A DNA stretch of 64,000 nt from a virus. The notes beneath the pieces were generated by a model that did no database searches, had not been told where the DNA came from, and saw only the letters and a program-made list of their open reading frames with translations. How positions within the stretch are numbered: position 1 is the stretch's first letter; each line of letters opens with the position of its first letter. This document shows, one piece after another, positions 1-48,002 of this stretch. Location: UHGV virus genome UHGV-1366603; one strand, written 5' to 3'. A program made the position numbers and the translations under genes.

Positions 1-1643
1 GTGGTGCTACTGCGGTAGGTGAAGGTGAACTGTTAATCGGATGGTCGGGCACGAGTGGTGCGCACGCTCCAGTTTATATTCGTAGTCGACGTGATTCAGC
101 GGATGCGCCGTGGTCAGATTGGGCACAAGTTTATACTGCCCGTGACAGTATTCCTGGCGTAAATACCACCGGTAATCAGGATACTACTGGCAATGCCGCT
201 ACCGCGACGAAACTGAAAACCGCTCGCAGAATCGGCGGCGTTACATTTGACGGTACTGGGGATATCAATTTACCGGGGGTTAACCAAGCCGGTAACCAGA
301 ATACGTCAGGTAATGCTGCGACAGCGACTAAACTTCAGACTGCGCGAAATATAGGCGGTGTGGCTTTTGATGGTACTAAAGACATCAGTTTACCTGGTGT
401 AAACCAGACGGGTAATCAGTCGACTACCGGAAACGCAGCCACGGCAACAAAGTTGCAGACAGCGCGTACCATTAACGGTATCGCATTTGACGGTACTAGA
501 AATATATCGTTAGGGCCTGCCGATATAGGTTGTCCGGCTTCGCCCACTGGTTGGTTGGAGACTGGTAAAGACGGCGGCGCAATAACTACAGCACAGCTAG
601 TGACGTTATTGCAAAATAACGGCGCGTTTACCACAAAATCATGGGTTGCTCGCTGTGCATGGGCTTATGCTGCTAGTGCGTCCATACCGAACAGCGAGAC
701 GGGTTGTGGTGTTATTCCGTTAGCTGGGGCTGTTATAGAAGTGATTAGTAACAGCGCAAACAACTACACGATTCGTATAACGACCCCCACAACGGCGAGC
801 GTCGACGGCGCACTCACTAATGCGGAGTTTATCTACGTAAATAACGGTGATGCTTACTCACCAGGTTGGCGTCGCGCTTACAATACGAGAAACAAGCCTA
901 CTGCTGCGGATGTTGGGGCGTTGCCATTATCTGGCGGAACAATGACTGGTGTGCTGACGCTGCAAAATGTGAGTCAGCCTCTCAAGACGCCGGGTGGCGG
1001 CATTCTGGCAAATGATGGAAATTTATACATCAATAAGTCAGGATTTGCAGGCTGGATTGATGCGCTGTTTTTGAAGAACAGCGGCGGTACTCTGACTGGC
1101 GGCTTGACTGTTAATGGTAAACTGGTTACGAAGCATCCTGATTTTCGAATCGCTTATGGTAGCTGCGGTTTCATTTTACGTAATGATGGTGCCAATACCT
1201 ATTTCTTAGTAACCGACTCCGGACAAGCCGCAACGGGTTCCTGGAACGGACTACGTCCGTTGTATTTTAATAACTCTAACGGTCAAGTAACCTTTGGTCA
1301 TAACGTTTCTAGCAACGGTAACGGTTCGTTTAACGATGTACAGATTCGTTCTGACCGTCGAAACAAACGTAATCTGGTGAAACTGGATAACGCGTTAGAC
1401 CGTTTAGAAGCGCTTACCGGGTATCTGTACGAGGTTCAACATCCAGACGACGGTTGGAATACCTCAGTGGGTTTAATTGCCCAGGATGCACTCGTTGCGT
1501 TACCTGAATTGGTTACTGAAGACGATGATGCTATTTCTGGTGAAAAACGTTTGCGTTTGAACTATAATGGCGTTATTGCGTTGTTAGTAGAGGGGATGAA
1601 AGCGTTGCGTCAAGAGGTTAACGAAATTAAAGGAAGATCCTAA
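1..1643 (+). CDS. Long tail fibre distal subunit (gp37-like), 5'-partial, with C-terminal intramolecular chaperone (peptidase S74-like) domain
   Basis: Open frame runs from window start (frame 3) to stop at 1641-1643. Three 40-aa fibre repeats (GNQxTxGNAATATKLxTARxIxGxxFDGT). C-terminal SDRRNKRNL...LIAQDALVALPEL...LRLNYNGVIALLVEGMKALRQE matches the auto-cleaving chaperone domain of fibres/tailspikes. Confidence 0.8.
   Translation, partial: GATAVGEGELLIGWSGTSGAHAPVYIRSRRDSADAPWSDWAQVYTARDSIPGVNTTGNQDTTGNAATATKLKTARRIGGVTFDGTGDINLPGVNQAGNQNTSGNAATATKLQTARNIGGVAFDGTKDISLPGVNQTGNQSTTGNAATATKLQTARTINGIAFDGTRNISLGPADIGCPASPTGWLETGKDGGAITTAQLVTLLQNNGAFTTKSWVARCAWAYAASASIPNSETGCGVIPLAGAVIEVISNSANNYTIRITTPTTASVDGALTNAEFIYVNNGDAYSPGWRRAYNTRNKPTAADVGALPLSGGTMTGVLTLQNVSQPLKTPGGGILANDGNLYINKSGFAGWIDALFLKNSGGTLTGGLTVNGKLVTKHPDFRIAYGSCGFILRNDGANTYFLVTDSGQAATGSWNGLRPLYFNNSNGQVTFGHNVSSNGNGSFNDVQIRSDRRNKRNLVKLDNALDRLEALTGYLYEVQHPDDGWNTSVGLIAQDALVALPELVTEDDDAISGEKRLRLNYNGVIALLVEGMKALRQEVNEIKGRS
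171..530 (+). repeat. Three tandem 120-bp coding repeats (40-aa tail fibre repeat units)
   Basis: Units begin at 171, 291 and 411, each starting ggtaa(t/c)cag and encoding GNQ..GNAATATKL.TAR.I.G..FDGT..I.L. Confidence 0.7.
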
Positions 1644-2425
1644 TGGCAGTTGTCGGCGTAGGTGGTTGGATTGGTTCTTCAGCAAAAGCTGAAACTGGTA
1701 ACGATTGGATGTCTGGCGCGATGCGCACACTTGGTGTGCCGGTTCCAGGCTGGATGTCGCAATTGGCGGGAAAATCAAAAGAGGCTCAGTATTCGATCGG
1801 GGCTAATCACAATTACAATAAAGATACGCTTATTAACTATTTACGTTCCATAGGCTCTACTGCTGTCGTTGTGACCATTACAGGGGATTTAGTGTCTTAT
1901 AGTAGCGGGGTTCCTTGTTTAGAGTTCCCTAGCAATCTTCCAAATTCGTATATTACCCTCATCATCAATCCTGGGGTTACAGTATACGGCAGAGGAGGCA
2001 ACGGCGGTTCTAACTCACCAGGCGGTGCAGGTGGAACCGCAATACAGAACGGAATAGGAAACAGACTGCGTATAACCAACCGTGGCGCTATTGCCGGAGG
2101 CGGTGGCGGCGGTGGCGGCGGTAACAGGGGTAGACTAATATTTGGTGGTGGCGGTGGTCGCCCATTCGGTGCTGGTGGGTCTTCCTCTCATATGAGTTCC
2201 GGTGCGGCTGCTGGTACTATTTCCGCTCCTGGTAGAGGATCTGTTGGTGAGGGGTCTCTTAGTGCATATACAGGCGGTTCGGGTGGTAATGTCGGTGCTG
2301 GTGGAGGAAGATGTAATACTCATGGTAACGGTACAGAATATAACGGCGGAGCAGCTGGTAAAGCTGTTACTGGTAATGCGCCAAGATGGGACGCAGTAGG
2401 TGCAATATACGGTTCACGTGTTTAA
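1643..2425 (+). CDS. T2-type gp38-like tail fibre adhesin with glycine-rich motifs
   Basis: ATG overlaps upstream stop (TAATG). N-terminus MAVVGVGGWIGSSAKAETGNDWM and ITGDLVSYS, RLRITNRGAIAGGGGGGGGG, GGGGGRPFG segments fit adhesins that cap gp37 in T2-like phages (from memory of the family). Confidence 0.7.
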   Translation: MAVVGVGGWIGSSAKAETGNDWMSGAMRTLGVPVPGWMSQLAGKSKEAQYSIGANHNYNKDTLINYLRSIGSTAVVVTITGDLVSYSSGVPCLEFPSNLPNSYITLIINPGVTVYGRGGNGGSNSPGGAGGTAIQNGIGNRLRITNRGAIAGGGGGGGGGNRGRLIFGGGGGRPFGAGGSSSHMSSGAAAGTISAPGRGSVGEGSLSAYTGGSGGNVGAGGGRCNTHGNGTEYNGGAAGKAVTGNAPRWDAVGAIYGSRV

Positions 2426-2441
2426 TTAAAAAGGAGGGTAG

Positions 2442-2954
2442 ATGGGGGTAGCGTCAGGATGGGTCGGATCTTCAGCTAGGAATGAAACTGGCCAACAATG
2501 GATGAGCGCTGCGGGTAGTAAATTAGGATTGGGTAGACCTTTTATGATGAGCCAAATGGTAGGCCGATCTACGGGTTGTAAAATTGCGACCGCTTACTAC
2601 AAAGGGAATCCTCCTGATAAAGTTGAAAACTGGGGGGCCGTAGGTTCAGATTGGCCATTGGCTGAAAAGAACAAAGGCACAATTACTGGTGCTACGAGCT
2701 GTGGTTTAGGTCGTTTAGTGGGGATCGTACTTACGCAAGCTCACTACATTTCTGGTGTTCCACCCACTGCGGCTTTATATATCGCAGGAGGAAGGGCGAG
2801 TAACATTACGGTGACGGTTGGTGGTGTTTCGCAAGCATTTACTTACCATGATGTTATTAACGGTTTTCACTATTATTGGCAAGGAACACCGAGTTCGGCC
2901 TTTATAGCAGCAATGAAGAAAACGGGCGTTACACAAGATTTGAAAGTTCGCTAA
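2442..2954 (+). CDS. Second gp38-like protein: shared N-terminal fibre-attachment region, unrelated C-terminal domain without Gly-rich motifs
   Basis: RBS aaggaggg before ATG. N-terminus GWVGSSARNETGQQWMSAAG parallels the upstream adhesin (GWIGSSAKAETGNDWMSGA); remainder diverges. Confidence 0.5.
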   Translation: MGVASGWVGSSARNETGQQWMSAAGSKLGLGRPFMMSQMVGRSTGCKIATAYYKGNPPDKVENWGAVGSDWPLAEKNKGTITGATSCGLGRLVGIVLTQAHYISGVPPTAALYIAGGRASNITVTVGGVSQAFTYHDVINGFHYYWQGTPSSAFIAAMKKTGVTQDLKVR

Positions 2955-3116
2955 CTAATTAGGGGTAAAACGACAACTAAAACTAGTAAAATAAGAGTTC
3001 GTGAATTCGTAATTCAATATTTTTTATAGAAATGCTGATTTATTAGAATCGGGGGAGGGGGTGAAATGTTTTTAGCCAACATTTTACGTCTCCTCAATCA
3101 TAGGAGGTAACCATAC

Positions 3117-3629: not shown

Positions 3630-3631
3630 CA

Positions 3632-4252: not shown

Positions 4253-4262
4253 ATTTTAGGTA

Positions 4263-4306
4263 GTAGGGGCTAAGCCCCTACTACCTTTCTTTTTTTTTAT
4301 TTTTTC
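4263..4306 (+). terminator. Intrinsic terminator
   Basis: Hairpin gtaggggc-taa-gcccctac followed by a long T-run. Confidence 0.7.
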
Positions 4307-4332
4307 TCAGATATATATTACCTAGAGGAGAG
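4307..4332 (+). promoter_or_regulatory. Copy 1 of recurring promoter-like motif TCAGATATATATTACCTAG(A/G)GGAGAG
   Basis: Near-identical motif also at 8362, 40079 and 44424, always upstream of a + strand gene and followed by a short hairpin. Confidence 0.5.
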
Positions 4333-4378
4333 CGAAATTTACATTCGCACTATTAGTTATAGCCGAAAGGAGGATTAG

Positions 4379-23499: not shown

Positions 23500-26400
23500 T
23501 TAAGATGTAAACATAAGATTGAACTGGAGTTTGTCGATATCGCGAGTTTCTGCCGGATTCACGGCATCGTACGCGGTCGCTACGTAAACGGTTAGCGTGC
23601 CGTTAGCGTAAGACGATTTCACCGGTGGGTTAGTTCCGGTCTGACCATCTCGCACAATGAGTGTAGGTTCACTTGGGAGATTATCAAACTGACCCTTGAC
23701 CGCTTTATACACCAAACCAGATTGCGCAGACAGTTCACTGTCCGTAAAGACAAAGAACGGTGTGTCGATATCTGCCTGTTTAATCGTGGTACCGGTCTCG
23801 ACGTCAATCAACTGTACCGCCCCAAACTTCGTACGATAACTTTCATACTCGTTCTTCGGAATAACGAACGTGACGTGAACGCGAACCTCCTCGGCAGGTT
23901 TAAACCCAGCGTGCTCTTTTTCCAGGTACTGGTTGGCGGTTAACGTTACCGTTTGTTCAGTCATCGTACCACCGGCCTGGTTTATTGCATACCGAGCTTC
24001 AACAATACCGGTTGGTGCAGCAAGTCGCAGTTTCAAAGCACGATTCGCCGTTCCTGGATTACCTGGCACCTGAACGCGCAAACTCAATGCTAGGTAAGCA
24101 TACGTTCCGGTAGTCGGTTTCGTATACGCACCAATCCATTTCATGTTCGCAGACGCTGCCTGCGTGTTTTCAGAAGCAGTGGCTGTCGCAATGTTGGCGG
24201 CTACCGCTTTCTGCCAGAATTGGTCAGCGCAGTTCTCATACGCTACCCTGGCCACGCTCTTATAACCCGAGTAAGTTTCCTGAATTGGTAACTTAGGACG
24301 CGTCGTAATACCAGACAGTGAACCCCATTTTTGACCGTCAACATACCCTTCACCTTTCGTCGCAGACGCCGTAGGTGCTTTAACGGGTTTGTTAACCAGC
24401 GTTAATAGAGGACCGGTCTTTCTGTCAAACGCTGCTGCTACATCGTGTTGGTCGATAATTGCCGCGTGGTCTTCCAGCTCTTTCACACGACCCAAACGTT
24501 TTACTTTGTCGATACTGATATCGGTAATACGGCTGGAATCGGTGGTTACCGTCCCGACGAACAGTCTTGTTGAAGTATCAGCTAACTGCTCCAAACCGAT
24601 ACGGTATTGCGCAGTAGAACCTGACACCTCAGCGTGCACGTAGAACGTTTGGTTAGCGTGATTGGACGGGAACTCGCTGCTTAAATCCACAGACCACGTT
24701 GGAAGTGTGTAACTGCTGCTACCGAAGTCTAACTTGACTTCTTCTGTCAAATACAGAATCCAGCCTTCTGCTGTCTCCACACCGGCAATAATAACAGCCT
24801 GACCTCCGGTTGAGAACGTCGTGTCGTTAACGAACTCTGCGGCTGTATACGCGTTACCTGAACAGAAAACACGGTCAGCTTTAGAGTAAATCAACGCCAT
24901 CTTGTCCCAATTACCGGCACCCATATAGCACCCAGATTCTGGGTTATGTGCAGGGGCCATCTGTCGTAACTGTGACTTACCAGGAACGCGAGACCAACCT
25001 GAACCTGGGTCGTAGGTATACTTCGCGGCGTAACCTAGTGCATTTAAGTCCCCGATATTTCGGATAGTTAACGTATAAGGTAGCCAAATACCGAAGTTTA
25101 CACCGTCGGCAGAAGCAAAAATTGGCTGACCGACACGTCGTGTTTTATTACCCGCTTCTTCCCTCAGAGACTGATAACTTAAACCATAATCGAGGTCTAA
25201 GAACCAGTCCACCAACTTAAAGGTGGCTGAGTTGAAACGTAAGTAGCCGTTCTCTTTAGATGGACTCACCATGAAGTAATAGATGTCAAGAATTCGACGT
25301 CCGTTACTTGAGGTTTTCATGCACGAAACTTGCAACAAGTCAAATTCGCACACGGTGTTGATACCCAACATCCAAAGAGCAAACAATGCATTACCGGTTT
25401 GATGGGCAGCGCTAATACGTTCATTCGCGTAACCATTTGCTTGACCAGATGGCGCACCGTCAACGATCATCCGAATCATTTTCTGGCGATCGGCTTCTTC
25501 TAGCGTTAAGCGTTCGGAAGACAATGCGAAATTACCGTAGATGTTACGATACGGGAACGTTTCTGCTTTGGTCAAATACCAACCGTTTAACTGCCCGTGA
25601 CGCTCCTCAGGAGTCATGCACGCAGCCATACAGCTAAGCTGCTCGTAAAGCGTTGCATCGACTTCACGACGGTTGTTGTTCGGACCGTATCCGCTATAAC
25701 CCGGAACATCGTAAGGTTTGTTCGGATCAACTTCTACTTCGATGGTGTAACGGTTACGTGGGTTAGACAACCACACTTTGTTCGAACCACCAATTCCGAC
25801 AGGATGGGAAAGACCGATGGTATAAATAGAACCGCGACCTTTATCCCAGGTAAACGTTCCTTCGCCCGAGGTGTTGTTTGGGTTATCGTAACGCAGATAG
25901 TCGAAAAGCTCTTTGCCTTGTGTTCCTTTAATAGAAACGTTCGTCATCTGGTCCGCATCGTTAATCTGCCAACAGGAAAGCATCATTCCTGTACCGTTGG
26001 GTTTAGCATACGTCGCGAAACAACGGTTGTTTGCCTGGCCACCACCCCACTTACGACTGGTTTCTACAGTTGAGCCATCCGCGAACGAGAGTGTAGTAGC
26101 ATCAGCCTTGATGGGGAAGCGTTCGCGGCCTTCTAACGTAACCTTGCCCGTCAACGTATCGATTGTGAAACTTGTTGCCCATTGACGGAAATTAATCGTC
26201 GAACCGTCTGCCGCCGCAAACCACACAGTGGGCACATGGTTCACACGAATCACGCTATCGCGTACAGCACACGCGTGGTTACATTCTGGACCGTGAACAA
26301 AGTTACGTCCGATCGTCCATTTAGCACGACCCTCCGGTGTGAGATATGTAAAGAATTGACCAGTCTGCGACTCTTCGGTCTTCTGACCAATTCGTAAACA

Positions 26401-28683
26401 GAGGTTATCCCCGAATTGTCCCATCTCCCCGTTTAGGGTTACACGTTCAAATTCTAACGTAGTGTTAGTAGACAAATCGGCTTTACGTAATCGCCATGCT
26501 GCAACAGCGTAAGCAGAGTTATTTACCGTAGAGCGGAGAAGATAAACGTAGTCATCAACCAACACAACATCATCGGTTTCTGGCCACGGATTCCAGGTTT
26601 GTTCCGTAGTACCGCTGGGGTTGCCGTTACGGTACACAGGCATCGTAACGCGGCATACCACCGTGTGCTTAGTGTGGTCCATCGAGCCATTAAACAGTAC
26701 CAAATAACGGTTATTATCAGAACCCAGGCAAATAATCGCTTCCTGGCCGCCGATCAATATCGCTTTTAGGGTCACTCCAGGATATTTACTCATCCCGGCA
26801 GGGTGATATTTCACTGAGGTCTGCTGCGGATTTACAAACGCGTTTGACGTGTTAATGTCCGCGTAGCCGTAATAAATAGCTTCTGTACCCGGTACGCCAT
26901 TAGAACCGTTACGTAGCGAATAAACCTTACCCTGCTGATGCCCAACAACCCCTTTCTGGTAGGACTGGTTTTTGGTGTAGCCTGCGTAGTTACCTAACGC
27001 TGGGATAGGTAAGAAGTTCTTGTTACCGAATTTCGCACCGCCTACCGTCCACGCCGGTAAGATGGTATTCAGTTTATCAGAGACCTTCTTAATCTCTTTT
27101 GCGAACAACCACCCTTGACGTGACGTGACAGCTTTATCATTAGTGGTGTCAATCGCATCCCACAGCTGTAAGATACCGTCAACCGTTGCACTACCAATTG
27201 GGACGTTATCCAAGTCAGCAGTGGTGTGGGTGTGCGTTTTCAAACTCTTGTTTTTCAACACGTTCGTTAACGCTTTTGTCACCGGCTTAGCACTCGGTAT
27301 GGTGTTATCCATCTTATCGATACCGAAATCGGTTTTCGTTAAGGTTAACACCATCTTGTCGCCCGTCTTAACAAACCCTTTACCGTTAACGGTATAGTCA
27401 TCGTCAACGTACAAGTCCAAACGGTCTTTTAATTCTGTTACAGCTTTCTGGGAGATGGCAGTACCTAACGCCGCAGACGTAGAGATATTCGTAATCGAGA
27501 ACAGCCCGTAAACCGATTCGGACGCTGTGGGAATATTCGCGTTTAACGTGACCGGGTTAGTCTGTTTTGCGGTACCGTACGGTTTTACGGTGTCTGACGC
27601 TTTGAAATACGCGTTTGCTTCAAGCAACGTTACTGACGTCAGATACATGTTCACCATTTCCGGTGTGACCAGATACACGGAGTTATAAACTGGCGCTAAT
27701 ACATCCTGTTCTGACCCCGAGTGAACCCAAAGCGTATTCAGACCCGCACTGAATTCAACCGCTAAACCCGATTCATTGTTGTCCTGGTCTGCTTTAATCA
27801 CCAACGGTTGTGGCGAGGTAATTAACCACTTATCGCCACGAATACTGATGATGTGGCCACCTGACGTTTTAAACGTTAATTCATTACCGTTCGTGGTACC
27901 CCATCGACCGTAAACGGTGCCGAGGGCTTCACCCATTAACTGGTCAACATCAGATTGTTCGATACCCGCTGAACCCATCAGCGTGGCCAATTCGTCAATC
28001 GTTAACCCAAACGCTTTAGTAGCGTCAACCGCACGTCCTAATACGGGGAGCGCAGCAACGTCGTCAGTGGTATAGTGATGCGCGTTAGGGTTACGGTGAT
28101 GCTGGTATAATTCTTCGTCGAAAACCTTTTTCCCGTTCTCGTAAATCAGGTTAGTGACTTCACTGAACGCAGCATCTAATTCCGTAGAACGTTTGATGAT
28201 TTTCTTACGAATGTCTTCTAACGCCTTAACGACCTCATCCATCAGAATCGCTTCTTCTAAGTTAGCAGGCGGGTCGATAGGCTGGATAACCGGCGCATAC
28301 GCCATTAGTTCAGACCAGTCCACGTTACGTGGGTCTTTCAGGTCAGTGCGAACTAAGAACTTCCCGATTTCAGATTGCGGTACACGGTATTGACGTGCTA
28401 CCCCTAAAATCTCATATTCGATTTCTGTTGCGGTAAGCAACATAAACCCGCCGTAAATCTGATCTTGCTCAGCTTCTGCGAGTTCTTTAAAGTAATAGCC
28501 TAAATAGTAGTCCAACCCCTCAATCAGAGTACGACGTCCGTTAGGCGCGGTATCGTCGGCTACTGTGAGTTTTAATCCGATACGATAAAAAGGTCCTTCA
28601 GGCGGAATGACCACGTTAAATCGGTTAGGGTACGTTGCTGTGCTTAGCGTACCGTTAAACTGCGCCGCGTCTTCTCTCGGCAT
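23500..28683 (-). CDS. Large tail fibre / tailspike-like structural protein (1727 aa)
   Basis: Single uninterrupted ORF; N-terminal PPEGPFYRIGLKL...GLDYYLGYYF anchor-like module; RBS aggag upstream. Confidence 0.6.
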   Translation of the reverse strand: MPREDAAQFNGTLSTATYPNRFNVVIPPEGPFYRIGLKLTVADDTAPNGRRTLIEGLDYYLGYYFKELAEAEQDQIYGGFMLLTATEIEYEILGVARQYRVPQSEIGKFLVRTDLKDPRNVDWSELMAYAPVIQPIDPPANLEEAILMDEVVKALEDIRKKIIKRSTELDAAFSEVTNLIYENGKKVFDEELYQHHRNPNAHHYTTDDVAALPVLGRAVDATKAFGLTIDELATLMGSAGIEQSDVDQLMGEALGTVYGRWGTTNGNELTFKTSGGHIISIRGDKWLITSPQPLVIKADQDNNESGLAVEFSAGLNTLWVHSGSEQDVLAPVYNSVYLVTPEMVNMYLTSVTLLEANAYFKASDTVKPYGTAKQTNPVTLNANIPTASESVYGLFSITNISTSAALGTAISQKAVTELKDRLDLYVDDDYTVNGKGFVKTGDKMVLTLTKTDFGIDKMDNTIPSAKPVTKALTNVLKNKSLKTHTHTTADLDNVPIGSATVDGILQLWDAIDTTNDKAVTSRQGWLFAKEIKKVSDKLNTILPAWTVGGAKFGNKNFLPIPALGNYAGYTKNQSYQKGVVGHQQGKVYSLRNGSNGVPGTEAIYYGYADINTSNAFVNPQQTSVKYHPAGMSKYPGVTLKAILIGGQEAIICLGSDNNRYLVLFNGSMDHTKHTVVCRVTMPVYRNGNPSGTTEQTWNPWPETDDVVLVDDYVYLLRSTVNNSAYAVAAWRLRKADLSTNTTLEFERVTLNGEMGQFGDNLCLRIGQKTEESQTGQFFTYLTPEGRAKWTIGRNFVHGPECNHACAVRDSVIRVNHVPTVWFAAADGSTINFRQWATSFTIDTLTGKVTLEGRERFPIKADATTLSFADGSTVETSRKWGGGQANNRCFATYAKPNGTGMMLSCWQINDADQMTNVSIKGTQGKELFDYLRYDNPNNTSGEGTFTWDKGRGSIYTIGLSHPVGIGGSNKVWLSNPRNRYTIEVEVDPNKPYDVPGYSGYGPNNNRREVDATLYEQLSCMAACMTPEERHGQLNGWYLTKAETFPYRNIYGNFALSSERLTLEEADRQKMIRMIVDGAPSGQANGYANERISAAHQTGNALFALWMLGINTVCEFDLLQVSCMKTSSNGRRILDIYYFMVSPSKENGYLRFNSATFKLVDWFLDLDYGLSYQSLREEAGNKTRRVGQPIFASADGVNFGIWLPYTLTIRNIGDLNALGYAAKYTYDPGSGWSRVPGKSQLRQMAPAHNPESGCYMGAGNWDKMALIYSKADRVFCSGNAYTAAEFVNDTTFSTGGQAVIIAGVETAEGWILYLTEEVKLDFGSSSYTLPTWSVDLSSEFPSNHANQTFYVHAEVSGSTAQYRIGLEQLADTSTRLFVGTVTTDSSRITDISIDKVKRLGRVKELEDHAAIIDQHDVAAAFDRKTGPLLTLVNKPVKAPTASATKGEGYVDGQKWGSLSGITTRPKLPIQETYSGYKSVARVAYENCADQFWQKAVAANIATATASENTQAASANMKWIGAYTKPTTGTYAYLALSLRVQVPGNPGTANRALKLRLAAPTGIVEARYAINQAGGTMTEQTVTLTANQYLEKEHAGFKPAEEVRVHVTFVIPKNEYESYRTKFGAVQLIDVETGTTIKQADIDTPFFVFTDSELSAQSGLVYKAVKGQFDNLPSEPTLIVRDGQTGTNPPVKSSYANGTLTVYVATAYDAVNPAETRDIDKLQFNLMFTS

Positions 28684-28715
28684 CGTAAAGACTCCTACTT
28701 TTAAATAAAATGGAT

Positions 28716-28740
28716 ACCCCTCCCCATTACAGGGAGGGGT
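28716..28740 (-). terminator. Intra-operon hairpin with U-rich tail (possible partial terminator or attenuator)
   Basis: On the minus strand, acccctccc-tgtaatg-gggaggggt is followed by atccattttatttaaaag, just before the RBS of the 1727-aa gene. Confidence 0.45.
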
Positions 28741-28777
28741 TACCTACGGACACACAACTGCCCGCAGGCAGCCTGTC

Positions 28778-31700
28778 CTAAGTACGATCCCCTAACTGCT
28801 TCCCGTTAAGTTCTCGTTTCAGTACAGAAAGTATCCATTTCCACGCTTTACTCGTGATATGGTACGGATTGCGTTTCTCCATTAAGAACTGCTTTTCACC
28901 GCTACGCAGTTCGAAGCTCTGCGCATTAAGCTGATCCTGACGAGTGCTTTGCTCATCAGTCACTTCTAACGAACAGGTAAAGTTAAGCTCGTAACCTTCA
29001 GGATTATTACCCGGCGGGTCTAAGACAATATAGATGTCCTGACCTACACGTAAATCCGTTGGAGTGATGGTAATCGCTTTACCCACATCGGCGTTAGTCG
29101 ACAGAGCAAACTCTGCACTATCGGTAGACGCTAAGAATGGGTCTTTCCCTGCGTCACCGATAATCACCTTACCCGGCCAGTTACTTTTTATCGTTCCTGA
29201 CACTCTTGCAATTCGGTACTGTTGTTTATCAACACCTTGTGCAAAACGGAGAATGAGTTTGTGACGATAACGACTTGCAGCAGCCTTAGTCGTACTCCAC
29301 TCGTTGTTCCAGGAAGTATGCAGTTCGTTTTTCTTCGCCATCAGCGCACCGCGAGACAGCTTACGGTCAAAGAACTGCGCAGGTAACTGCCCATCGTGAG
29401 AAACCGCAACGCTTCCCTGACCAGTTGGTAAAGCAATGCTTTCCGTAACGCGGTATTTTTGACTAATCTCATAAGTCGCAGGGTCAATCACAGACTGACT
29501 ATAATCAGCGTCTTTGTTATCAGCCAAATACCCAACGGATGAATCCAGATACGACTCAAACAGCGAACGTAAGTAATGATACTTATCAATGTTGATGTTG
29601 TTCGTAACCGGATCAATCAGCGCATGGCTAATCGTTACTCGGCATTTCGCACTCAGTTCTTTAAACGACAACCCTATTCCGTCACCGGTAAAATAATCCA
29701 CTAAGTCGAACGGGAATTGAATTTCCAACTGACGTTGTTTAACTGTCGTCGTCCCAAACTGCGAGAACGACAACGCTAAACGTAACACACGCGTACTCAC
29801 GTTATAGCGATAACGAATCATGCCACGAGGCGCATGGTTTGCAGAGATTTTATCTCGGGCGGCACCCCAACCAATCAAATCGAGAATCGCGGGGTTGGTT
29901 TCTTCACCGTTGAACAACACGTCCTTAAACGTTGCGTCAATCGCTGTTTCCCCAGACTCTTCCATTACCAACGGAATGTCAGTAACGTCTGAAACCGAAC
30001 GGGAACCAATCCCCAACTTACACTCTTTGGCCGTCAGGTCAATACGTACGTAACGACGCTTAACACTCGCACCTTGCGTTGACGTACACAGCACCAAATC
30101 CGGTGCAGCAGTAAGCGCTTGCGCCCCACCGACGTCGTCAACATCGAATGCAAACGAGCCTTCGAAGGTCGGTGCGTTGTTTTCTTTCGGGTTAAACGGT
30201 GTAAACCAACAATACGGCGTAGCACCTTCAGGTATCACAACGTATTGAAGACTGGATTTCACGTTTTGGTTGTGTGCGTAAGTATAAAGACCGCGACTGA
30301 CAAGATGGAAAACATCACCTGTACCGGCTGTTAACGCTTTCCTAAAGATACACGCTCTTGGTTCGGCAACAGCACGGTTTAATAACGGCAACCGTGGGTT
30401 ATCCGTTAACGCCCAGTCCACAGAACTGAGTCCGTGTGCTTTACGCGTGGCGATGTGTCCACTAACCTCGGCACTTTTCCCGAAATCAAACGTGGTTTCG
30501 AACCCAACTGTTTTATTCGCGTAATTCTCACCAGCAACAATATCAACGTAACCGATATAGCCACGTTCAGGATCAACTGCGATGCTCTGAATCGGTTCAG
30601 CACGCGAATATAGAGAGCCTGTGAGCATGTTAACGTACAGATAGTGACGAATCCCTACGTGCGTGGTAACAAACTCCTGGAGAAGCTCTACGCGCGTTTC
30701 AGGGCCACTGAAGTAAACAGGGTAATTCCCATCGTAAACTTCAAACTGTACCGCTGCGGACTTAGCCGTATCGCTACACTCAGCTTTAACCGCTACTGTG
30801 TAGTTTTCAACGTCCGATGACGTTTCGTACACTGCAACGAGCGGAGACTCGCCTGACGCTGCCAGGACACCGTTAATGTAAACCGTAACCGGACCGCCGC
30901 CCGCAGCATAAACCCAGAGCTTCGGTTGGTACGCCCTTACACGCGTTTTTGCCAATACCGTAACCACTGACTGGTCACCCATCTGCGTGGCAGTTTTACC
31001 CACCGGGACAGACTGGAACCCCATCAACGGCGGTTCTTCAATACCTGTCCAGTTGATTCCCGTACCGTTACTCACCTTACCCGTAGGCCAGGTCAGTTCA
31101 AGCTGGTTGTTCGGTGAGAACCAGTTAAACATCGGGGTGGTTTGCAGGTCAATCGCACCAGTAACGGTGCTGTCGCCTTTCGTCCCGTCCAGCAAATAGA
31201 AATATTTCAAATCCTGAACGGAGATTGACGTACCCTGGCTATTAAAACGCCAGTCCGCACCTTTCACAGCAGCGAAGTCAGTTACCGTGCCTTCTTTCGC
31301 GTTTGCAATTGCCGCAGCGACCACATCTAAACGTGCTGAAAGCTCTTTTAGGATGTTCGGTACCACTGCACGGTTTTCAACTAAGCCGTTCTGGTTAGTT
31401 GCGTAACGACCAATACCGTAAATCGTCTGCGAGGCTTTATAAATGCCTAACTCTGACCAGTCGTGATGGTGCCCGACGTCTGCTAAACCACTAACCGAAG
31501 CATTCAGTGCGGTCGACAACGGTTTGTCGAGGTCTGCGGTGTTATCCGCTTGCCCTAATCCCAGGTCAGCTTTCGTGATTGTCCTGGAACCGTCGTTCAT
31601 CGGCTTACCGTTAATCATGGTCGTTTTAGTCACGTACCCTGATAAGTCGGTTGAATACGGCGTTAATGATGCAGGCGTTGCAGCAACCCCAACCGTTTCT

Positions 31701-32962
31701 GTGCCTTTACCGGTTTTAAGCTTAACAACACCTTTTTCAGCGGTGGACGCTTTCGTTGGGTCGATAGTCCCCACGATAGGATCGGCACGAGAGCCTTTAC
31801 CGGTAAAACTAATCCCGTTACGGCCTTCGATATACACTTTGGAGTCATCAGGATCGCTACCGCCACTCCCGCCAGCATCAGGGTCTTGCTGATACTCCAT
31901 CAGCGCTGTGGTGGTCAACAACGGGTTACCGTTCAGGGTGAGTTTGTTCATCCCTAAAGCGTCGCCGGTTGACTCGATACGTAAGGTGTTTTTACCCGCA
32001 CGCCAGTTAATGTAACGTCCCGCACCTGTGCCTTCCAGATGCCCTACCGCTAATACCACAGAACCGTTGGATTTTAACGTAAAGCCATCATTCGCAAAAA
32101 TGATTTCTGACTCGCCGTTTTTCGAACGGAACTGTGCGCGGTTTCCTGACACCGTACAGTTAAACACACCCCGTACTTCCGAAGAAATCCAGTGAGAGAT
32201 ATACGTGTCGATAACCGACTGCGGTAAACGAAACGCTTTGAGTTCTTCCGTTAACGCTTTCAACTTTAACCCATACGCCATAAAGGTGTCGGGTGTTTTC
32301 AGGTTAACGGGATGGGCATTAATTTGTGCGCTCGTGGTTTCGTGCGGGTTCGTCGCGGCGATATGTGCTGGGTAGTTGAACGCTTCAATTTCTTTACCCA
32401 GCGCAGTCACTAACGCTTTAACTTCGGCTAATTTATCTTTAATTAGCTGGTTAGCATCATCGGTTTTCAGCTCAATATCGTGAATCGCTGACGCTAAATA
32501 TTTTTTGTTCAGCAAATCCGCCCAAGACGTTGCCGCAGGCGTAGCTGGATATAACGACGGCCTTCCGTCTAACAACAGCCAGTCTGCACTGACCGGGTTA
32601 TTCAAATATTTCACCAGCTCGTCGAGCATGTCAACGAACGGGTCGTAGAACGTACCGCCGAGCATTTGTCCTTCAAAGGTTACGATGCCTTTGATGGATG
32701 GGTTGATAAGGTGTACCCCACAATACACGTTGGCTGCTACCGAGTCATCCAGTTCCGTCAGCTGATATTGCAGTTCGTAGTCCACCCCACGGCTCAGTGG
32801 GGTGGTTGAACCTGGTTGTCTGACGACTAAATCTTCAAAGAACGGGCGATGGTCTAAAATCACCACCCGATCGTTGTTGTTTTCTGACCCGATGATACGC
32901 TCCTCTAAGAAGTGATTCTCGGTTTTCGTCCCCCGAGGATCGTAAGGATACGCTTTCATCAA
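28778..32962 (-). CDS. Large tail fibre / tailspike-like structural protein (1394 aa)
   Basis: N-terminal HRPFFEDLVVRQ...GVDYELQY anchor-like module; Gly/Thr/Ser/Asn-rich beta-type composition. Confidence 0.6.
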   Translation of the reverse strand: MMKAYPYDPRGTKTENHFLEERIIGSENNNDRVVILDHRPFFEDLVVRQPGSTTPLSRGVDYELQYQLTELDDSVAANVYCGVHLINPSIKGIVTFEGQMLGGTFYDPFVDMLDELVKYLNNPVSADWLLLDGRPSLYPATPAATSWADLLNKKYLASAIHDIELKTDDANQLIKDKLAEVKALVTALGKEIEAFNYPAHIAATNPHETTSAQINAHPVNLKTPDTFMAYGLKLKALTEELKAFRLPQSVIDTYISHWISSEVRGVFNCTVSGNRAQFRSKNGESEIIFANDGFTLKSNGSVVLAVGHLEGTGAGRYINWRAGKNTLRIESTGDALGMNKLTLNGNPLLTTTALMEYQQDPDAGGSGGSDPDDSKVYIEGRNGISFTGKGSRADPIVGTIDPTKASTAEKGVVKLKTGKGTETVGVAATPASLTPYSTDLSGYVTKTTMINGKPMNDGSRTITKADLGLGQADNTADLDKPLSTALNASVSGLADVGHHHDWSELGIYKASQTIYGIGRYATNQNGLVENRAVVPNILKELSARLDVVAAAIANAKEGTVTDFAAVKGADWRFNSQGTSISVQDLKYFYLLDGTKGDSTVTGAIDLQTTPMFNWFSPNNQLELTWPTGKVSNGTGINWTGIEEPPLMGFQSVPVGKTATQMGDQSVVTVLAKTRVRAYQPKLWVYAAGGGPVTVYINGVLAASGESPLVAVYETSSDVENYTVAVKAECSDTAKSAAVQFEVYDGNYPVYFSGPETRVELLQEFVTTHVGIRHYLYVNMLTGSLYSRAEPIQSIAVDPERGYIGYVDIVAGENYANKTVGFETTFDFGKSAEVSGHIATRKAHGLSSVDWALTDNPRLPLLNRAVAEPRACIFRKALTAGTGDVFHLVSRGLYTYAHNQNVKSSLQYVVIPEGATPYCWFTPFNPKENNAPTFEGSFAFDVDDVGGAQALTAAPDLVLCTSTQGASVKRRYVRIDLTAKECKLGIGSRSVSDVTDIPLVMEESGETAIDATFKDVLFNGEETNPAILDLIGWGAARDKISANHAPRGMIRYRYNVSTRVLRLALSFSQFGTTTVKQRQLEIQFPFDLVDYFTGDGIGLSFKELSAKCRVTISHALIDPVTNNINIDKYHYLRSLFESYLDSSVGYLADNKDADYSQSVIDPATYEISQKYRVTESIALPTGQGSVAVSHDGQLPAQFFDRKLSRGALMAKKNELHTSWNNEWSTTKAAASRYRHKLILRFAQGVDKQQYRIARVSGTIKSNWPGKVIIGDAGKDPFLASTDSAEFALSTNADVGKAITITPTDLRVGQDIYIVLDPPGNNPEGYELNFTCSLEVTDEQSTRQDQLNAQSFELRSGEKQFLMEKRNPYHITSKAWKWILSVLKRELNGKQLGDRT

Positions 32963-32972
32963 AAAATTCTCC

Positions 32973-35900
32973 TTAATCGCGAATGATTACCGCCTGCACT
33001 TTATTGTTGGTGTCGATAAACGACATTACGCGCTCCTTGTTAAGATAAGGAGGTATCGGTAACGCAGCGTAATCCGCCAGGTTGTTATTAAACTCGGTTG
33101 CCACTAGCGCATTAAGCGTTTCGGGGTCTGAGCTTGTCCCGGCCAATTCCATGACACGTACACGATTTAACGAGGAGTAGTTGCTAATATAATCCAGCAG
33201 CGTACCGTAGAGTTTGTTCCCGGTTATGCTGTCTGCCGTAGAACGGATATTAGCACGCACTTCGTCCTCATAAAGTCCCCCTAAACCGTAGTAAATAGGG
33301 GTGTACGGATCGTTAACGATAGGTGCAATATTGAACCCGGTTAAACGGTCGCTTAGTGGGATTTTCTGCGTAGTGCCGCCTGCTGCTGTACAGCTTACGT
33401 ATTTATCTACCGCAGACAAGTACACCACGATAGTGTAAACGGTACCTGCTAAGGTCAGCGATGCGTTAAACGTTAAGTCGTTATTCGCACCACGCGTGTG
33501 TGTAAAAGTCACATCGGGTTGTAACGTACTCCACGGTGCAGGTGTAACACGTTTGGTGGGCGTGAAGCCTAACACCACAGATTTCCCGTTACCGAAGTTT
33601 AAACCAAACCCGGCGTAACAATACTCGCCGTTGCTATCAGTTAACCGATAACCACGGGTGACAAGTAACGACAACCGCATAAACTCGCCATCGGTGTTTT
33701 TCCAGCAACCCAGGACGGTTTCTAGCACCGTTCCGGTTTTTGCGTTGCTTTCGGTTTCCCAACTGACTCGCATCCCCGCATTGTTAAATACTGGGAACAA
33801 GTTGTGGATAAACCCGTGAACGTTATCACTTACCCCTTTCGCATCAAACACCCACTTCGACGCAAGCTGGTCGTATTTCACACCATCGAGTGCTTTATAT
33901 CCACCGCCAACCACATAACGCCAATCTGCCTCGCCACGCACAACCGCTTGAAGTCCAGAAGCCCAGCAGGGCGCACCTACTGTTAAATTGCTTAACCCCA
34001 GCACTGCACGCGGAGCAGAACGCTGAATATGTGCGTTGTCATTAGCGACGTGGTCTTTCAATTCACGGAAATCGCCTAACCGTGTCACGTTACGTAGTTC
34101 AGTAACGAACACTTCAGAAAGGTCGTTAATACCGATCAGCCCCACGCGCGTCATGGTATCCGTTTCAGCCTGACTGTAGCTGTCGTGAATAATATACTTC
34201 GCTTTGTTATCGACAATGTCAACAAAAATCCCTGCGTAAATTTCCTTATTCAGATTCGGGAAACGTTCAGTGACGTTAACCGACATCAACGGCACGTCGT
34301 ACGTTTCGCCGCCAATGAAATACGTGGAAGCAGGAAGTGTCACCAGGATTTTGTCTTTAACCGTAACGTCAATTAGGTCGTTACCGGACTTACCAAAGCG
34401 AATAATGTCAACGCGAGCACCCGAGTCAACCCCACCGACGGTATTCTCCAAATCTTCAATCTGGGAAGTCTGCGCCATCACCACACTACCATCGAGTGCT
34501 AAGGTGACATCATCCACATCCAGACCGAACTTAATCAGACCCCGTTTCGTGGTGTCTGCGTTTTCAACACCGAACACAGAAGACGGGTGTTGGTGAACCT
34601 TCGGTGAGTATTTGTCTAACTCAGTCTGTTGTGCAACAGAAATCGGTAAGTCAACGTCCGGGGTATTCGCAACGTTACCTAAACCAAAGGTAATTTTGTC
34701 GATAGTAACCGAACTGGTAAGCTGCATGTCGTTGATGTACGACTTGGCAGCAACCAACTTACCAGTAAACTCTGCGTCCAGTTTTTCAATTAGCGCAGGA
34801 GTCGCCGCGAGGTTTTCAGCCGTACCAAACTCGTCAGTCAACTGCCAACACGCTAACGTAGTAACGTCTTCGGCAACCGGAAGGATAAACGTTGCGACAA
34901 ACGGCGATGCTTTAATCCCGCTACCGGTAAGTTCCACCGTAGACGTCGACGCACCGTAGAACAGACCTGTACCGCCTGCGGTATTACCCGGCAAATACGG
35001 ACCGACCGTAGTGGGGTCTAAGAGCTTCTTACCACGCCACAACAATCCACGGTCATCGGGGTATAGCACAAGCTGGTTACCGCCTGCTTGTAACGTAACA
35101 GGGTTATTACCCACGTTAACATCGGTAGAACCTTGACCGATGAACTTAATGGATTTCGGATCAACGACGAACTGGGCACCTAAACGTTTTTCGTCAACTA
35201 CACCAGGTGCTTTCTTAATGGTAACCGTGTTACCTTTGTTTTGCGAACTAATAGAGACGCCGTCAGCAACATTATTGATCAGCGATTTAAAGTGATGCTG
35301 ATTCTCTAATGCTTCTAACGCAGCGTCCATGTTATCGAAGTTAATCCGGGAGCTATACGTTTTACCGTTTAAGCTAATAACGGCGTCAAACACGTTCCCT
35401 GTACGCTTCAGTTGAAAACGCAGCGTAAAATCCCCATCCGGTATTGCTGGATCAGGAGCTTGAGAAATGTACCGAACTGACGGTACCGGATTCCCGTAAC
35501 CGTGCAACGACAGTTCGATAGTAAGAGTACCACTCCGGACTTCACCGAAAATCTCTACGTACTTACCGGAGTTACTACCGGGATTTTCGTAGAAACGTAA
35601 ACCGGCCCTACCGACTGCCTCATTACCAGACGCTGTTTTACGTCCAGTAACAATAAAGTCAATATCTTGCAGGCTGGCGGGTACCGCGTTAAAAGAAGCA
35701 CTAAATCCATTCTTCGTTCCTGTGTAACGAAGTGCGCCGTGATACGTGCGACCTTGACTAACATAGCTTTCGCTAAAATAAGGATTCACGTATTTAGACA
35801 TCGAAACCGGATCAACTTCTGTCGTGAACGAAGTAAAACCGGATAGCGTTCCAATGGTTCCGTCGGCCGTTTTCGTAGTTGACGTGCGCAGTAGTTTCTT

Positions 35901-47917: not shown

Positions 47918-47924
47918 TACCACG

Positions 47925-47974: not shown

Positions 47975-48002
47975 ACCACGCTCCGTGAATATGGAGGTGG
48001 AC

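What the first reader, a model, noticed from the sequence alone, without database searches (positions are those of the whole stretch)
2096..2125. (GGN)n simple-sequence tract in the adhesin gene
The run ggaggcggtggcggcggtggcggcggt encodes nine consecutive glycines. Such tracts are prone to slippage or recombination and, in gp38-type adhesins, delimit hypervariable receptor-contact segments, making this a likely host-range variation hotspot.
Basis: partly seen in the sequence, partly recalled or inferred. Interest (0 to 1): 0.35.

Follow-up and report, generated by a model that had tools for sequence, protein, structure and literature searches.

The report
Structural poly-glycine helix in gp38 adhesin
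The nine-glycine run is a conserved structural core element of a phage tail-fibre tip protein (gp38); it does not vary in length, but it marks the spot where whole receptor-binding cassettes are swapped between very different phages.

Summary
Window 2096-2122 is (GGN)9 and encodes Gly152-Gly160 of a 260-aa ORF (1643..2425, +). It is the only such tract in the window, with none expected by chance. The ORF is a T2/S16-type gp38 adhesin by Pfam GP38 + Gp38_N, PDB 6F45 (E 1e-51) and an AF2 model (TM 0.82-0.86 to 6F45).

The tract aligns to S16 gp38 residues 151-158. That is polyglycine-II helix 3, the central helix of the "polyglycine sandwich", corresponding to GRM2 of the older five-motif scheme.

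The slippage idea is not supported. All 40 close-relative proteins and all 13 flank-anchored DNA hits have exactly nine Gly. Gly152-157 are invariant in 47 diverse homologues. Only synonymous changes occur, and shortened tracts appear in 3 of 110 distant cluster representatives.

The recombination idea is supported. In 8 of 8 mosaic comparisons the 5' junction maps to 2082-2113. The cassette at about 2099-2375 is 89-97% identical in DNA to OmpA-dependent Straboviridae phages (FL18, PaulHMueller), to Krischvirus, and to ~110-kb E. coli plasmid-like elements. The rest of the gene is only 51-66% identical. A sister 222-kb element shows the reverse pattern.

The host genome is a Seoul-like (SPN3US-related) jumbo phage. 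The motif is known biology; this is a new member in an unusual host genome.

The parts
2096..2122 (+). (GGN)9 tract encoding Gly152-Gly160. It corresponds to polyglycine-II helix 3 (the central helix) of the gp38 polyglycine sandwich, and is the 5' junction of the exchangeable receptor-binding cassette.
   Evidence: Searches give sequence and uniqueness. Searches align it to S16 gp38 151-GGGGGGGG-158. One search shows G152-157 invariant. One search gives pLDDT 97 for residues 151-160. One search places the 5' breakpoints at 2082-2113 in 8 of 8 comparisons.
1643..2425 (+). gp38-type tail-fibre adhesin gene (260 aa). Its ATG overlaps the stop codon of the fibre gene (TAATG).
   Evidence: Pfam GP38 PF05268 at 2.6e-69 and Gp38_N PF21721 at 1.5e-15. 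PDB 6f45_D at 1.2e-51 and 9v85 (PP01 gp38) at 2.5e-37. AF2 pLDDT 91.4 and Foldseek TM 0.82/0.86 to 6f45_D.
1643..1768 (+). N-terminal attachment domain (Gp38_N, residues 1-42) with Trp9, Trp22 and Trp37.
   Evidence: W9 and W22 are at least 90% conserved. PMC6851490 describes three conserved Trp residues that dock into gp37.
1988..2038 (+). First Gly-rich motifs (GRGGNGGSNSPGGAGG), corresponding to PGII helices 1-2. They lie outside the exchanged cassette. The CGGTGCAGGTGG at 2024-2035 is the upstream arm of the 144-nt natural deletion.
   Evidence: The helix 1-2 assignment is by homology to S16.
2099..2375 (+). Exchangeable receptor-recognition cassette (about Gly153 to Asn245). It comprises PGII helices 3-10 plus the hypervariable loops and is of OmpA type 2 by similarity.
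   Evidence: Inside the cassette, DNA identity is 89-97% and third-codon-position identity 81-97%, against 51-66% and 29-43% outside, versus FL18, PaulHMueller, JSE, kvi and L004/5/7. The pattern is reversed versus L027. Protein identity is 93-94% to FL18 and PaulHMueller, both OmpA-dependent.
2123..2143 (+). Hypervariable segment immediately after the tract (NRGRLIF).
   Evidence: It varies in both length and sequence across 110 homologues.
2144..2179 (+). Next Gly-rich motif, GGGGGRPFGAGG. The CGGTGCTGGTGG at 2168-2179 is the downstream arm of the 144-nt natural deletion.
3..1643 (+). 3' part of the distal tail-fibre (gp37-like) gene. It runs off the left edge of the window and carries a C-terminal Peptidase_S74 intramolecular chaperone domain.
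   Evidence: Pfam Gp34_trimer and Peptidase_S74. Frame 3 is open from nt 3.
2442..2954 (+). Second, glycine-poor adhesin ORF (170 aa) with the same Gp38_N attachment domain. It is context for gp38, not part of the tract.
   Evidence: Pfam Gp38_N at 3.2e-20. phrog_1121 'tail fiber adhesin' at 2.8e-53 over full length. Conserved after gp38 in L001-L003, L008 and L027.

Best explanation
The tract encodes the central polyglycine type II (PGII) helix of the receptor-binding 'polyglycine sandwich' of a T2/S16-type gp38 adhesin. This monomeric protein caps the long tail fibre.

Every position of the helix core must be glycine. The helix is packed against neighbouring PGII helices with no room for side chains, and its backbone is fully hydrogen-bonded to them. 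Its length and position are therefore fixed by purifying selection, while the third codon positions drift.

The tract is also the first element of the long excursion (helices 3-10 plus loops) that carries the receptor-contacting hypervariable loops. Its DNA is unavoidably similar in all gp38 genes. Together these two properties make it the 5' crossover point, or at least the only tolerated 5' boundary, for homologous exchange of the whole receptor-recognition cassette. The 3' boundary lies in the conserved C-terminal GGAAGxAVxGNAP region.

In this genome, a Seoul-like jumbo phage, the cassette is the OmpA-type-2 cassette also found in Mosigvirus FL18, Tequatrovirus PaulHMueller, Krischvirus JSE/kvi and ~110-kb E. 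coli plasmid-like phage elements. Host-range change therefore comes from cassette replacement and loop substitutions, not from changes in tract length.

Shown here: identity of the protein, conservation of the tract, and the mosaic junctions. Inferred: PGII geometry (by homology to S16), OmpA as receptor (by 93-94% cassette identity to characterised phages), and whether the junction reflects a mechanistic preference or selection on viable chimeras.
For: Identity:
- Pfam GP38 and Gp38_N.
- 6F45 chain D at E 1.2e-51, with query G152-G159 aligned to S16 G151-G158.
- The crystallographers name 'helix 3; 151-GGGGGGGG-158' and show GRM 3 as the central helix with a saturating hydrogen-bond network (PMC6851490).
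- AF2 model pLDDT 91.4, with block 151-160 at 97 and no helix or strand assigned to 152-159.
- Foldseek TM 0.82/0.86 to 6f45_D.

Constraint:
- G152-G157 are invariant and G158 is at least 90% conserved in 47 homologues down to 52% identity.
- In 110 homologues the tract occupies the same nine columns. 'Shorter' runs of G7 or G8 arise from substitution at the C-terminal end, not from indels.
- Codons differ synonymously between lineages.
- Deletion of T6 GRM2/3/4 gave no viable recombinants among 220 phages screened (PMC3157838).

No length polymorphism:
- 40 of 40 proteins have nine Gly.
- All 13 gp38 DNA hits have nine Gly codons, although the patterns allowed about 4-14.

Junction:
- The nucleotide alignment switches from a mismatch every 3-5 nt to near identity at 2098-2104.
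- A two-breakpoint maximum-chi-square search gives 5' ends at 2087, 2099, 2082, 2099, 2096, 2096, 2096 and 2113, and 3' ends at 2364-2389.
- At least four mutually divergent N-terminal backbones (48-66% identity) share the cassette at 90-98%, which requires at least three independent transfers.
- The sister element L027 is 92% identical outside the cassette and 51-55% inside.

Receptor: FL18 and PaulHMueller are OmpA-dependent, and cassette protein identity to them is 93-94%.
Against: - No coordinates of the model could be inspected, so the PGII conformation of residues 152-160 rests on homology to S16 and not on measured dihedral angles.
- Clustering of the junctions could reflect selection for functional chimeras rather than preferential crossover. 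In 222 divergent gene pairs the longest shared identical stretch fell in the 2093-2122 bin in 35 pairs, and in the 1913-1942 bin in 34 pairs. The tract is therefore one microhomology island among several.
- The eight comparisons are not independent events; at least three are.
- Rare shortened tracts do exist in distant Krischvirus-like contigs: -3, -3 and -5 Gly. The length is therefore not absolutely fixed, or these are defective or mis-assembled.
- The OmpA assignment is by similarity to E. coli phages. The apparent hosts here are Salmonella and Enterobacter, whose OmpA loops differ.
Confidence: 0.85

Rival explanations
1. One reading: the tract is a slippage-prone simple-sequence (contingency-type) tract. 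Polymerase slippage adds or removes Gly codons, producing length variants that alter receptor contact and host range.
For: TRF finds a perfect 9-nt unit x 2.7 copies. Other annotators flagged the same tract as a tandem repeat in phages kvi and TB34. Three of 110 distant cluster representatives have shortened tracts: P0035 and P0076 at -3 Gly (one 9-nt unit) and P0023 at -5 Gly.
Against: There are no length variants among 40 close-relative proteins. There are none among 13 flank-anchored DNA hits from viral and metagenome collections that allowed 4-14 codons. As a triplet repeat the tract is only 75% pure, and no more than two identical codons are adjacent. Gly152-157 are invariant across the family. 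The shortened variants represent one or two sequences each, come from short-read assemblies, and are of unknown viability. GRM deletions in T6 are non-viable.
Confidence: 0.05
2. The tract is purely a structural element with no mechanistic role in recombination. Crossovers occur anywhere in gp38, and only chimeras whose junctions fall at the domain boundary (the start of the helix 3-10 excursion) fold and survive. On this view the junctions mark selection, not a hotspot.
For: The cassette boundaries coincide with structural boundaries, the beta8-beta11 excursion of S16. The tract is not the only island of nucleotide identity between divergent genes. In RB5 x RB32 crosses the preferred exchange sites were in conserved sequences flanking the specificity domain (PMC3157838).
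Against: Sequence data cannot separate this view from the favoured one. Several junctions map within a few nucleotides inside the first three codons of the tract. This fits crossover resolved in the shared GGN run. Microhomology-flanked deletions between Gly-motif repeats (CGGTGCWGGTGG; poly-Gly joined to GGGGGRPFG) show that these DNA motifs do act as recombination substrates.
Confidence: 0.3
3. The G-rich tract forms a G-quadruplex or other non-B structure in DNA or mRNA. This stalls replication or translation and thereby promotes recombination or regulates adhesin expression.
For: With G-quadruplexes allowed, ViennaRNA predicts two-tetrad quadruplexes across 2096-2122 (MFE -39.9 against -12.9 kcal/mol without them).
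Against: Only GG doublets are available, so quadruplexes would have two tetrads. These are weak, and the energy model is generous to them. Third positions drift freely while glycine is kept, so selection acts on the protein. No conserved partner elements were seen.
Confidence: 0.03
4. The tract is a flexible, disordered poly-glycine linker between two domains of the adhesin.
For: Homopolymeric Gly runs are often linkers. DSSP assigns no helix or strand to residues 152-159.
Against: pLDDT is 97 across 151-160. The tract aligns with a crystallographically ordered PGII helix in S16 gp38. Its length and position are strictly conserved, unlike typical linkers.
Confidence: 0.02

Closest known systems
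Salmonella phage S16 gp38 (PDB 6F45 chain D; Dunne et al. 2018, described in PMC6851490)
   Same: Same three-domain architecture: an N-terminal attachment domain with conserved Trp residues, a beta-helix, and a polyglycine sandwich. The tract aligns residue for residue with S16 helix 3 (151-GGGGGGGG-158). Sequence match E 1.2e-51 and model TM 0.82-0.86.
   Different: There are nine Gly here and eight in S16, where position 159 is Phe. Identity is about 45%, and the hypervariable loops differ. S16 belongs to the Straboviridae, whereas this gene sits in an SPN3US-related jumbo phage.
GRM2 of T2/T6-type gp38 adhesins (Tetart et al. 1998; Trojet et al. 2011, PMC3157838)
   Same: It is a conserved glycine-rich motif that separates hypervariable segments. 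The literature describes such motifs as sites of recombinational shuffling, and their deletion is not tolerated. The mosaic junction mapped here at the tract is the signature those papers describe.
   Different: The assignment to 'GRM2' is by position only (HVS1 122-158 and HVS2 166-179 in the reference numbering of PMC12032242), and I did not see the published alignment. Here the exchange partners span different virus families and plasmid-like elements, not only T-even phages.
OmpA-type-2 gp38 of Escherichia phages FL18 (Mosigvirus) and PaulHMueller/Bas45 (Tequatrovirus)
   Same: From Gly153 to about residue 245 the cassette is 93-94% identical in protein and 93-94% in DNA. Both phages need OmpA.
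   Different: Upstream of the tract the genes are only 51-65% identical in DNA. The receptor of the present phage is untested, and its apparent hosts are Salmonella and Enterobacter.
Bacterial and phage simple-sequence contingency loci (phase-variable repeats)
   Same: It is a short tandem repeat inside a surface-interaction gene.
   Different: There is no length polymorphism among relatives. The repeat is imperfect, the units preserve the reading frame, and the tract is under purifying selection for glycine.

Membership tests
gp38 receptor-recognising adhesin (Pfam PF05268 / PF21721; T2, T6, S16 type) | Significant match to the GP38 and Gp38_N profiles over the full length | tested here: met
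   PF05268 at 2.6e-69 (233.8 bits against a cutoff of 25), residues 47-260 covering profile positions 1-218 of 218. PF21721 at 1.5e-15, residues 1-42.
gp38 receptor-recognising adhesin (Pfam PF05268 / PF21721; T2, T6, S16 type) | Three-domain fold: attachment domain, beta-helix and polyglycine sandwich | tested here: met
   AF2 pLDDT 91.4. Foldseek to 6f45_D gives E 3.5e-21 and TM 0.82/0.86, and to 9v85 (PP01 gp38) TM 0.75/0.88. The PGII geometry itself was not measured.
gp38 receptor-recognising adhesin (Pfam PF05268 / PF21721; T2, T6, S16 type) | Conserved glycine-rich motifs in conserved order, separated by hypervariable segments | tested here: met
   Invariant residues are G116-G119, G127, G130-131, G152-157, G171-172, P174, G176, G197, G212, G214-215, G221, G236 and G239. 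The segments between them vary.
gp38 receptor-recognising adhesin (Pfam PF05268 / PF21721; T2, T6, S16 type) | Gene lies immediately downstream of the distal long-tail-fibre (gp37-like) gene | tested here: met
   The fibre ORF ends at 1643 and overlaps the gp38 ATG (TAATG). The fibre carries Gp34_trimer and Peptidase_S74 domains.
gp38 receptor-recognising adhesin (Pfam PF05268 / PF21721; T2, T6, S16 type) | Three conserved tryptophans of the attachment domain that dock into gp37 | tested here: met
   W9, W22 and W37 are present. W9 and W22 are at least 90% conserved in alignment A1. The feature is as described in PMC6851490.
gp38 receptor-recognising adhesin (Pfam PF05268 / PF21721; T2, T6, S16 type) | Binds an outer-membrane receptor and determines host range | not testable with these tools
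   This rests only on similarity: the cassette is 93-94% identical to OmpA-dependent FL18 and PaulHMueller.
Slippage-driven simple-sequence (contingency) tract | Repeat-number polymorphism among closely related genomes | tested here: not met
   Nine Gly in 40 of 40 proteins and in 13 of 13 DNA hits, with 4-14 codons allowed.
Slippage-driven simple-sequence (contingency) tract | Long, perfect tandem array of a short unit | tested here: not met
   At period 3 only 75% of positions match. The best perfect array is a 9-nt unit x 2.7 copies. Codon composition differs between lineages.
GRM-bounded modular recombination of gp38 (Tetart 1998 / Trojet 2011 model) | Abrupt change of nucleotide identity, including synonymous sites, at a glycine-rich motif between otherwise divergent or otherwise similar genes | tested here: met
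   The 5' junction falls at 2082-2113 in 8 of 8 comparisons. Third-position identity is 81-97% inside against 29-43% outside, and the pattern is reversed for L027. At least three independent events are needed.
GRM-bounded modular recombination of gp38 (Tetart 1998 / Trojet 2011 model) | Crossovers occur preferentially in the motif before selection | not testable with these tools
   This needs unselected recombinant pools. The microhomology analysis was inconclusive.

The most novel reading that the evidence does not exclude
One OmpA-type receptor-binding cassette, bounded 5' by the poly-glycine helix codons, circulates almost unchanged (90-98% DNA identity) among at least three unrelated kinds of mobile genome. 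These are Straboviridae (three genera), ~110-kb plasmid-like phage elements of E. coli and Shigella, and nucleus-forming Seoul-like jumbo phages that persist in Salmonella and Enterobacter isolates. The all-glycine core would then act as a universal 'socket' that lets any cassette fold on any backbone. In the jumbo phage the cassette-bearing gp38 sits in tandem with a second adhesin that has the same attachment domain and no poly-Gly core. That arrangement could give alternative fibre tips and could explain why natural gp38 deletion alleles lacking the tract persist.
Probability: 0.45. Interest if true: 0.5.

Novelty: new member of a known kind. Interest (0 to 1): 0.27.

Why it matters
For the question asked, the result is mostly corrective. 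A poly-Gly run in a gp38 adhesin should be read as a fixed structural core element and a module boundary, not as a slippage hotspot. Annotators who flag it as a 'repeat region' are seeing protein constraint.

In practice, the tract gives a precise, conserved splice point for engineering or predicting host range. The cassette that starts at it (about 2099-2375) predicts OmpA as receptor for an uncultured jumbo phage lineage common in Salmonella isolate assemblies.

The cross-family sharing of this cassette shows that receptor-binding modules move between Straboviridae, plasmid-like phages and Chimalliviridae-type jumbo phages. This is relevant to host-range prediction and to phage therapy design.

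Tried and rejected
1. Length polymorphism. I searched viral, metagenome and genome collections with flank-anchored variable-gap patterns. All 13 gp38 hits had nine Gly codons. The genome-contig scan returned only chance matches.

2. Shortened tracts in distant homologues. I fetched the DNA for P0023, P0035 and P0076. The shortenings are real in those assemblies, but each cluster holds only one or two sequences and viability is unknown. They do not rescue the slippage model for this lineage.

3. Microhomology test. I asked where the longest identical stretch falls between divergent gp38 genes. The tract bin tied with another bin, 35 against 34 of 222 pairs, so the test does not show that the tract is a unique hotspot.

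4. G-quadruplex idea. Only two-tetrad structures are possible and the energy model over-favours them, so I rejected it as a main explanation.

5. Disordered-linker idea. Rejected on pLDDT 97 and homology to an ordered helix.

6. Minus-strand ORFs across the tract (1897..2079 and 2135..2323). They have no family support and lie inside a well-supported gene, so I treated them as spurious.

7. Structure of the second adhesin. AF2 gave only pLDDT 66, and BFVD matches were to other Gp38_N proteins at TM about 0.4. No fold could be assigned.

8. Near-identical phage genomes. Megablast of window 1-5000 against the phage collection matched only the gp38 region, apart from one hit to the second adhesin ORF. 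The closest complete record is a 222-kb 'plasmid' of Enterobacter ludwigii.

Full report
**1. Observation**

The sequence GGA GGC GGT GGC GGC GGT GGC GGC GGT occupies window 2096-2122 on the + strand. It lies in frame in ORF 1643..2425 (260 aa) and encodes Gly152-Gly160. The quoted end, 2125, adds the Asn161 codon.

Tandem Repeats Finder sees a perfect 9-nt unit x 2.7 copies. As a triplet repeat the tract gives only 75% matches.

(GGN)9 occurs once in the 64-kb window on either strand, against 0.00 expected in 100 dinucleotide-preserving shuffles. (GGN)5 occurs only here and at 2144-2157 in the same gene.

**2. What the gene is**

- The ORF matches Pfam GP38 (PF05268, 2.6e-69, full profile) and Gp38_N (PF21721, 1.5e-15).
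- It matches the solved S16 gp38 (6F45 chain D, E 1.2e-51) and PP01 gp38 (9v85).
- An AlphaFold2 model built on 47 homologues has mean pLDDT 91.4, and 97 for residues 151-160.
- The model superposes on 6f45_D with TM 0.82/0.86.
- The gene starts on the stop codon of a distal tail-fibre gene that runs off the left edge of the window. That fibre gene carries Gp34_trimer and Peptidase_S74 domains.

This is a T2/S16-type adhesin that caps the long tail fibre.

**3. What the tract is in the protein**

In the HMMER alignment, query G152-G159 pair with S16 G151-G158. The authors of the S16 structure describe "helix 3; 151-GGGGGGGG-158". They show it as the central helix of a three-layer lattice of ten polyglycine type II helices, with a saturating main-chain hydrogen-bond network. 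Helices 1-2 come from a short excursion of the beta-helix. Helices 3-10 come from a long one, and the hypervariable loops between helices form the receptor-binding face (PMC6851490).

In the older sequence-based scheme of five GRMs and four HVSs, the tract corresponds by position to GRM2 (PMC12032242). That assignment is my inference from the published coordinates.

**4. Is it variable?**

It is not variable in length.

- In an alignment of 110 homologues the tract always occupies the same nine columns. The counts are G9 in 60, G8 plus another residue in 30, and G7 plus two residues in 14. The 'shorter' runs arise from substitution at the C-terminal end and not from indels.
- In 47 diverse homologues (95-52% identity), G152-G157 are invariant and G158 is at least 90% conserved.
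- In three 90%-identity clusters around the query (238, 106 and 298 members), all 40 listed sequences that reach the tract have nine Gly.
- Flank-anchored DNA patterns allowed about 4-14 codons. They found 9 gp38 loci in IMG/VR and 4 in metagenomes, including three contigs of 223-229 kb. All carry nine Gly codons, and one shows a synonymous difference.
- Codon choice within the tract differs between lineages (GGA/GGC/GGT/GGG) while glycine is kept. This is the signature of protein-level purifying selection.
- Real shortenings occur in 3 of 110 representatives: P0035 and P0076 at -3 Gly and P0023 at -5 Gly. Each cluster holds one or two sequences, in Krischvirus-like short-read assemblies.
- Published deletion of GRM2, GRM3 or GRM4 in T6 gave no viable phage among 220 screened (PMC3157838).

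**5. What does vary, and where**

The residues just after the tract (about 160-167) are hypervariable in sequence and length. More striking is the behaviour of nucleotide identity at the tract.

Against FL18, PaulHMueller, JSE, kvi and three ~110-kb E. coli elements, the alignment shows a mismatch every 3-5 nt up to 2097. It is then almost identical from 2099 to about 2375, and diverges again after that.

A two-breakpoint maximum-chi-square search gave these results:

| Measure | Result |
|---|---|
| 5' junction vs FL18 (Mosigvirus) | 2087 |
| 5' junction vs PaulHMueller (Tequatrovirus) | 2099 |
| 5' junction vs kvi (Krischvirus) | 2082 |
| 5' junction vs JSE (Krischvirus) | 2099 |
| 5' junction vs L004, L005, L007 (~110-kb E. 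coli elements) | 2096 each |
| 3' junction, all comparisons | 2364-2389 |
| DNA identity inside / outside the cassette | 89-97% / 51-66% |
| Third-codon-position identity inside / outside | 81-97% / 29-43% |

The sister element L027 is a 222,441-bp circular 'plasmid' of Enterobacter ludwigii. It shows the mirror image: 92% identity outside the cassette and 51-55% inside, with the junction at 2113.

The backbones that share the cassette fall into at least four mutually divergent N-terminal types (48-66% identity). At least three independent transfers are therefore needed, each bounded at the tract. This matches the model of Tetart et al. 1998 and Trojet et al. 2011, in which recombination at conserved glycine-rich motifs swaps adhesin specificity.

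The exchanged piece equals the helix 3-10 excursion of the S16 structure. My inference is that the all-glycine helices 1-2 left on the backbone can pack against any incoming cassette, which would make such swaps viable.

**6. Other recombination at the Gly motifs**

Natural alleles in this same phage lineage (L008, P0004 with 9 members, P0016) lack 144 nt, about window 2023-2166. That is 48 residues and includes the tract. The deletion is flanked by the direct repeat CGGTGC(A/T)GGTGG, which encodes the two G-A-G-G motifs.

Other database alleles join the poly-Gly tract directly to GGGGGRPFG (P0051, P0057, P0086, P0106, P0110). These show that the Gly-motif DNA is a substrate for microhomology-mediated events. 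They come from assemblies, however, and their function is unknown.

A test of whether the tract is the dominant microhomology island between divergent genes was inconclusive, at 35 against 34 of 222 pairs for the top two bins. I cannot separate 'hotspot' from 'only viable boundary'.

**7. Function of the cassette**

Residues 152-245 are 93-94% identical to FL18 and PaulHMueller. Both depend on OmpA, and FL18 belongs to the 'type 2' narrow-range group (PMC12032242; PMC8594841). OmpA is therefore the predicted receptor. This is an inference.

**8. Genomic context**

Large virion proteins at 23500..37295 (-) are 47-52% identical to those of Erwinia phage phiEaH2 and Salmonella phage SPN3US. Relatives of the gp38 sit on 220-228-kb contigs, many from Salmonella isolate assemblies. 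This fits the 'Seoul-like' persistent jumbo phages described in bioRxiv 10.1101/2024.12.31.630880.

A second adhesin ORF (2442..2954) lies directly after gp38. It has Gp38_N plus a glycine-poor domain and matches phrog_1121. It is conserved in that position in the relatives.

**9. Verdict**

The tract is real and non-random, and it is a known, structurally obligatory motif of gp38 adhesins.

Novelty is that of a new family member in an unusual genome. The cross-family spread of one cassette bounded at this tract is the most interesting by-product.

Noticed in passing
window 2442-2954 (+): A second adhesin gene lies directly after gp38. It is 170 aa, with the same Gp38_N attachment domain (3.2e-20) but a glycine-poor beta-rich C-terminal domain. 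It matches phrog_1121 'tail fiber adhesin' over its full length and has a strong Shine-Dalgarno sequence (AAGGAGG). It is conserved after gp38 in L001-L003, L008 and L027, and its central region varies between relatives. One fibre may therefore carry alternative tips. The AF2 model was poor (pLDDT 66).
   Followed up: partly
window 2023-2166; L008 3001-3639; proteins P0004, P0016: Natural in-frame 144-nt (48-aa) deletion alleles of gp38 occur in the same jumbo-phage lineage. They remove the poly-Gly tract and the next Gly motif. The deletion is flanked by the 12-nt direct repeat CGGTGC(A/T)GGTGG. Other database alleles join the tract directly to GGGGGRPFG (P0051, P0057, P0086, P0106, P0110). 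They might be tolerated because of the second adhesin; this was not tested.
   Followed up: partly
whole window, especially 23500-37295 (-): The window comes from an SPN3US/phiEaH2-related ('Seoul-like') jumbo phage of about 220-228 kb that has no close relative in the phage collection. Three giant virion proteins (1727, 1394 and 1440 aa) are 47-52% identical to phiEaH2 and SPN3US. Relatives occur on contigs of Salmonella isolates and as a circular 222,441-bp 'plasmid' of Enterobacter ludwigii (NZ_CP134650). This matches the persistent virulent jumbo phages of bioRxiv 10.1101/2024.12.31.630880.
   Followed up: partly
window 3-1643 (+); L002 and L003 30-2945: The distal fibre gene runs off the left edge of the window. 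It ends in a Peptidase_S74 intramolecular chaperone domain with the motif IRSDRRNKRN. Relatives L002 and L003 carry a completely different fibre C-terminus and a different first ~20 residues of gp38 (junction near 1705). This indicates a second mosaic boundary inside the attachment domain.
   Followed up: partly
L004-L007, L026, L031 (E. coli/Shigella elements of about 107-120 kb): The same gp38 cassette occurs on circular, non-mobilizable ~110-kb E. coli and Shigella 'plasmids' that encode ParA-like, DnaB-like, primase and toxin-antitoxin genes next to tail-fibre genes, so they look like phage-plasmids. One isolate of 'Escherichia phage CMS-2020a' carries the Gly-rich gp38 (CP053388). Another (CP054387) carries the 170-aa adhesin type.
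   Followed up: partly
window 17772-19094 (-), 47826-50507 (+), 59983-61494 (+): These ORFs match PHROG families for a radical SAM domain protein (phrog_1802), an SbcC-like nuclease subunit (phrog_77) and a ribonuclease (phrog_3265). They are ordinary jumbo-phage cargo and were not examined further.
   Followed up: no
L024 2516-2541 (phage kvi); record OX001802 (vB_Eco_TB34): Other depositors annotated the homologous poly-Gly codons as a 'repeat_region' (TRF, 3.1 copies of ACCGCCGCC). In kvi the tract is a purer 6-nt repeat, (GGT GGC) x 4.5. If slippage occurs anywhere in the family, such alleles are the place to look.
   Followed up: no
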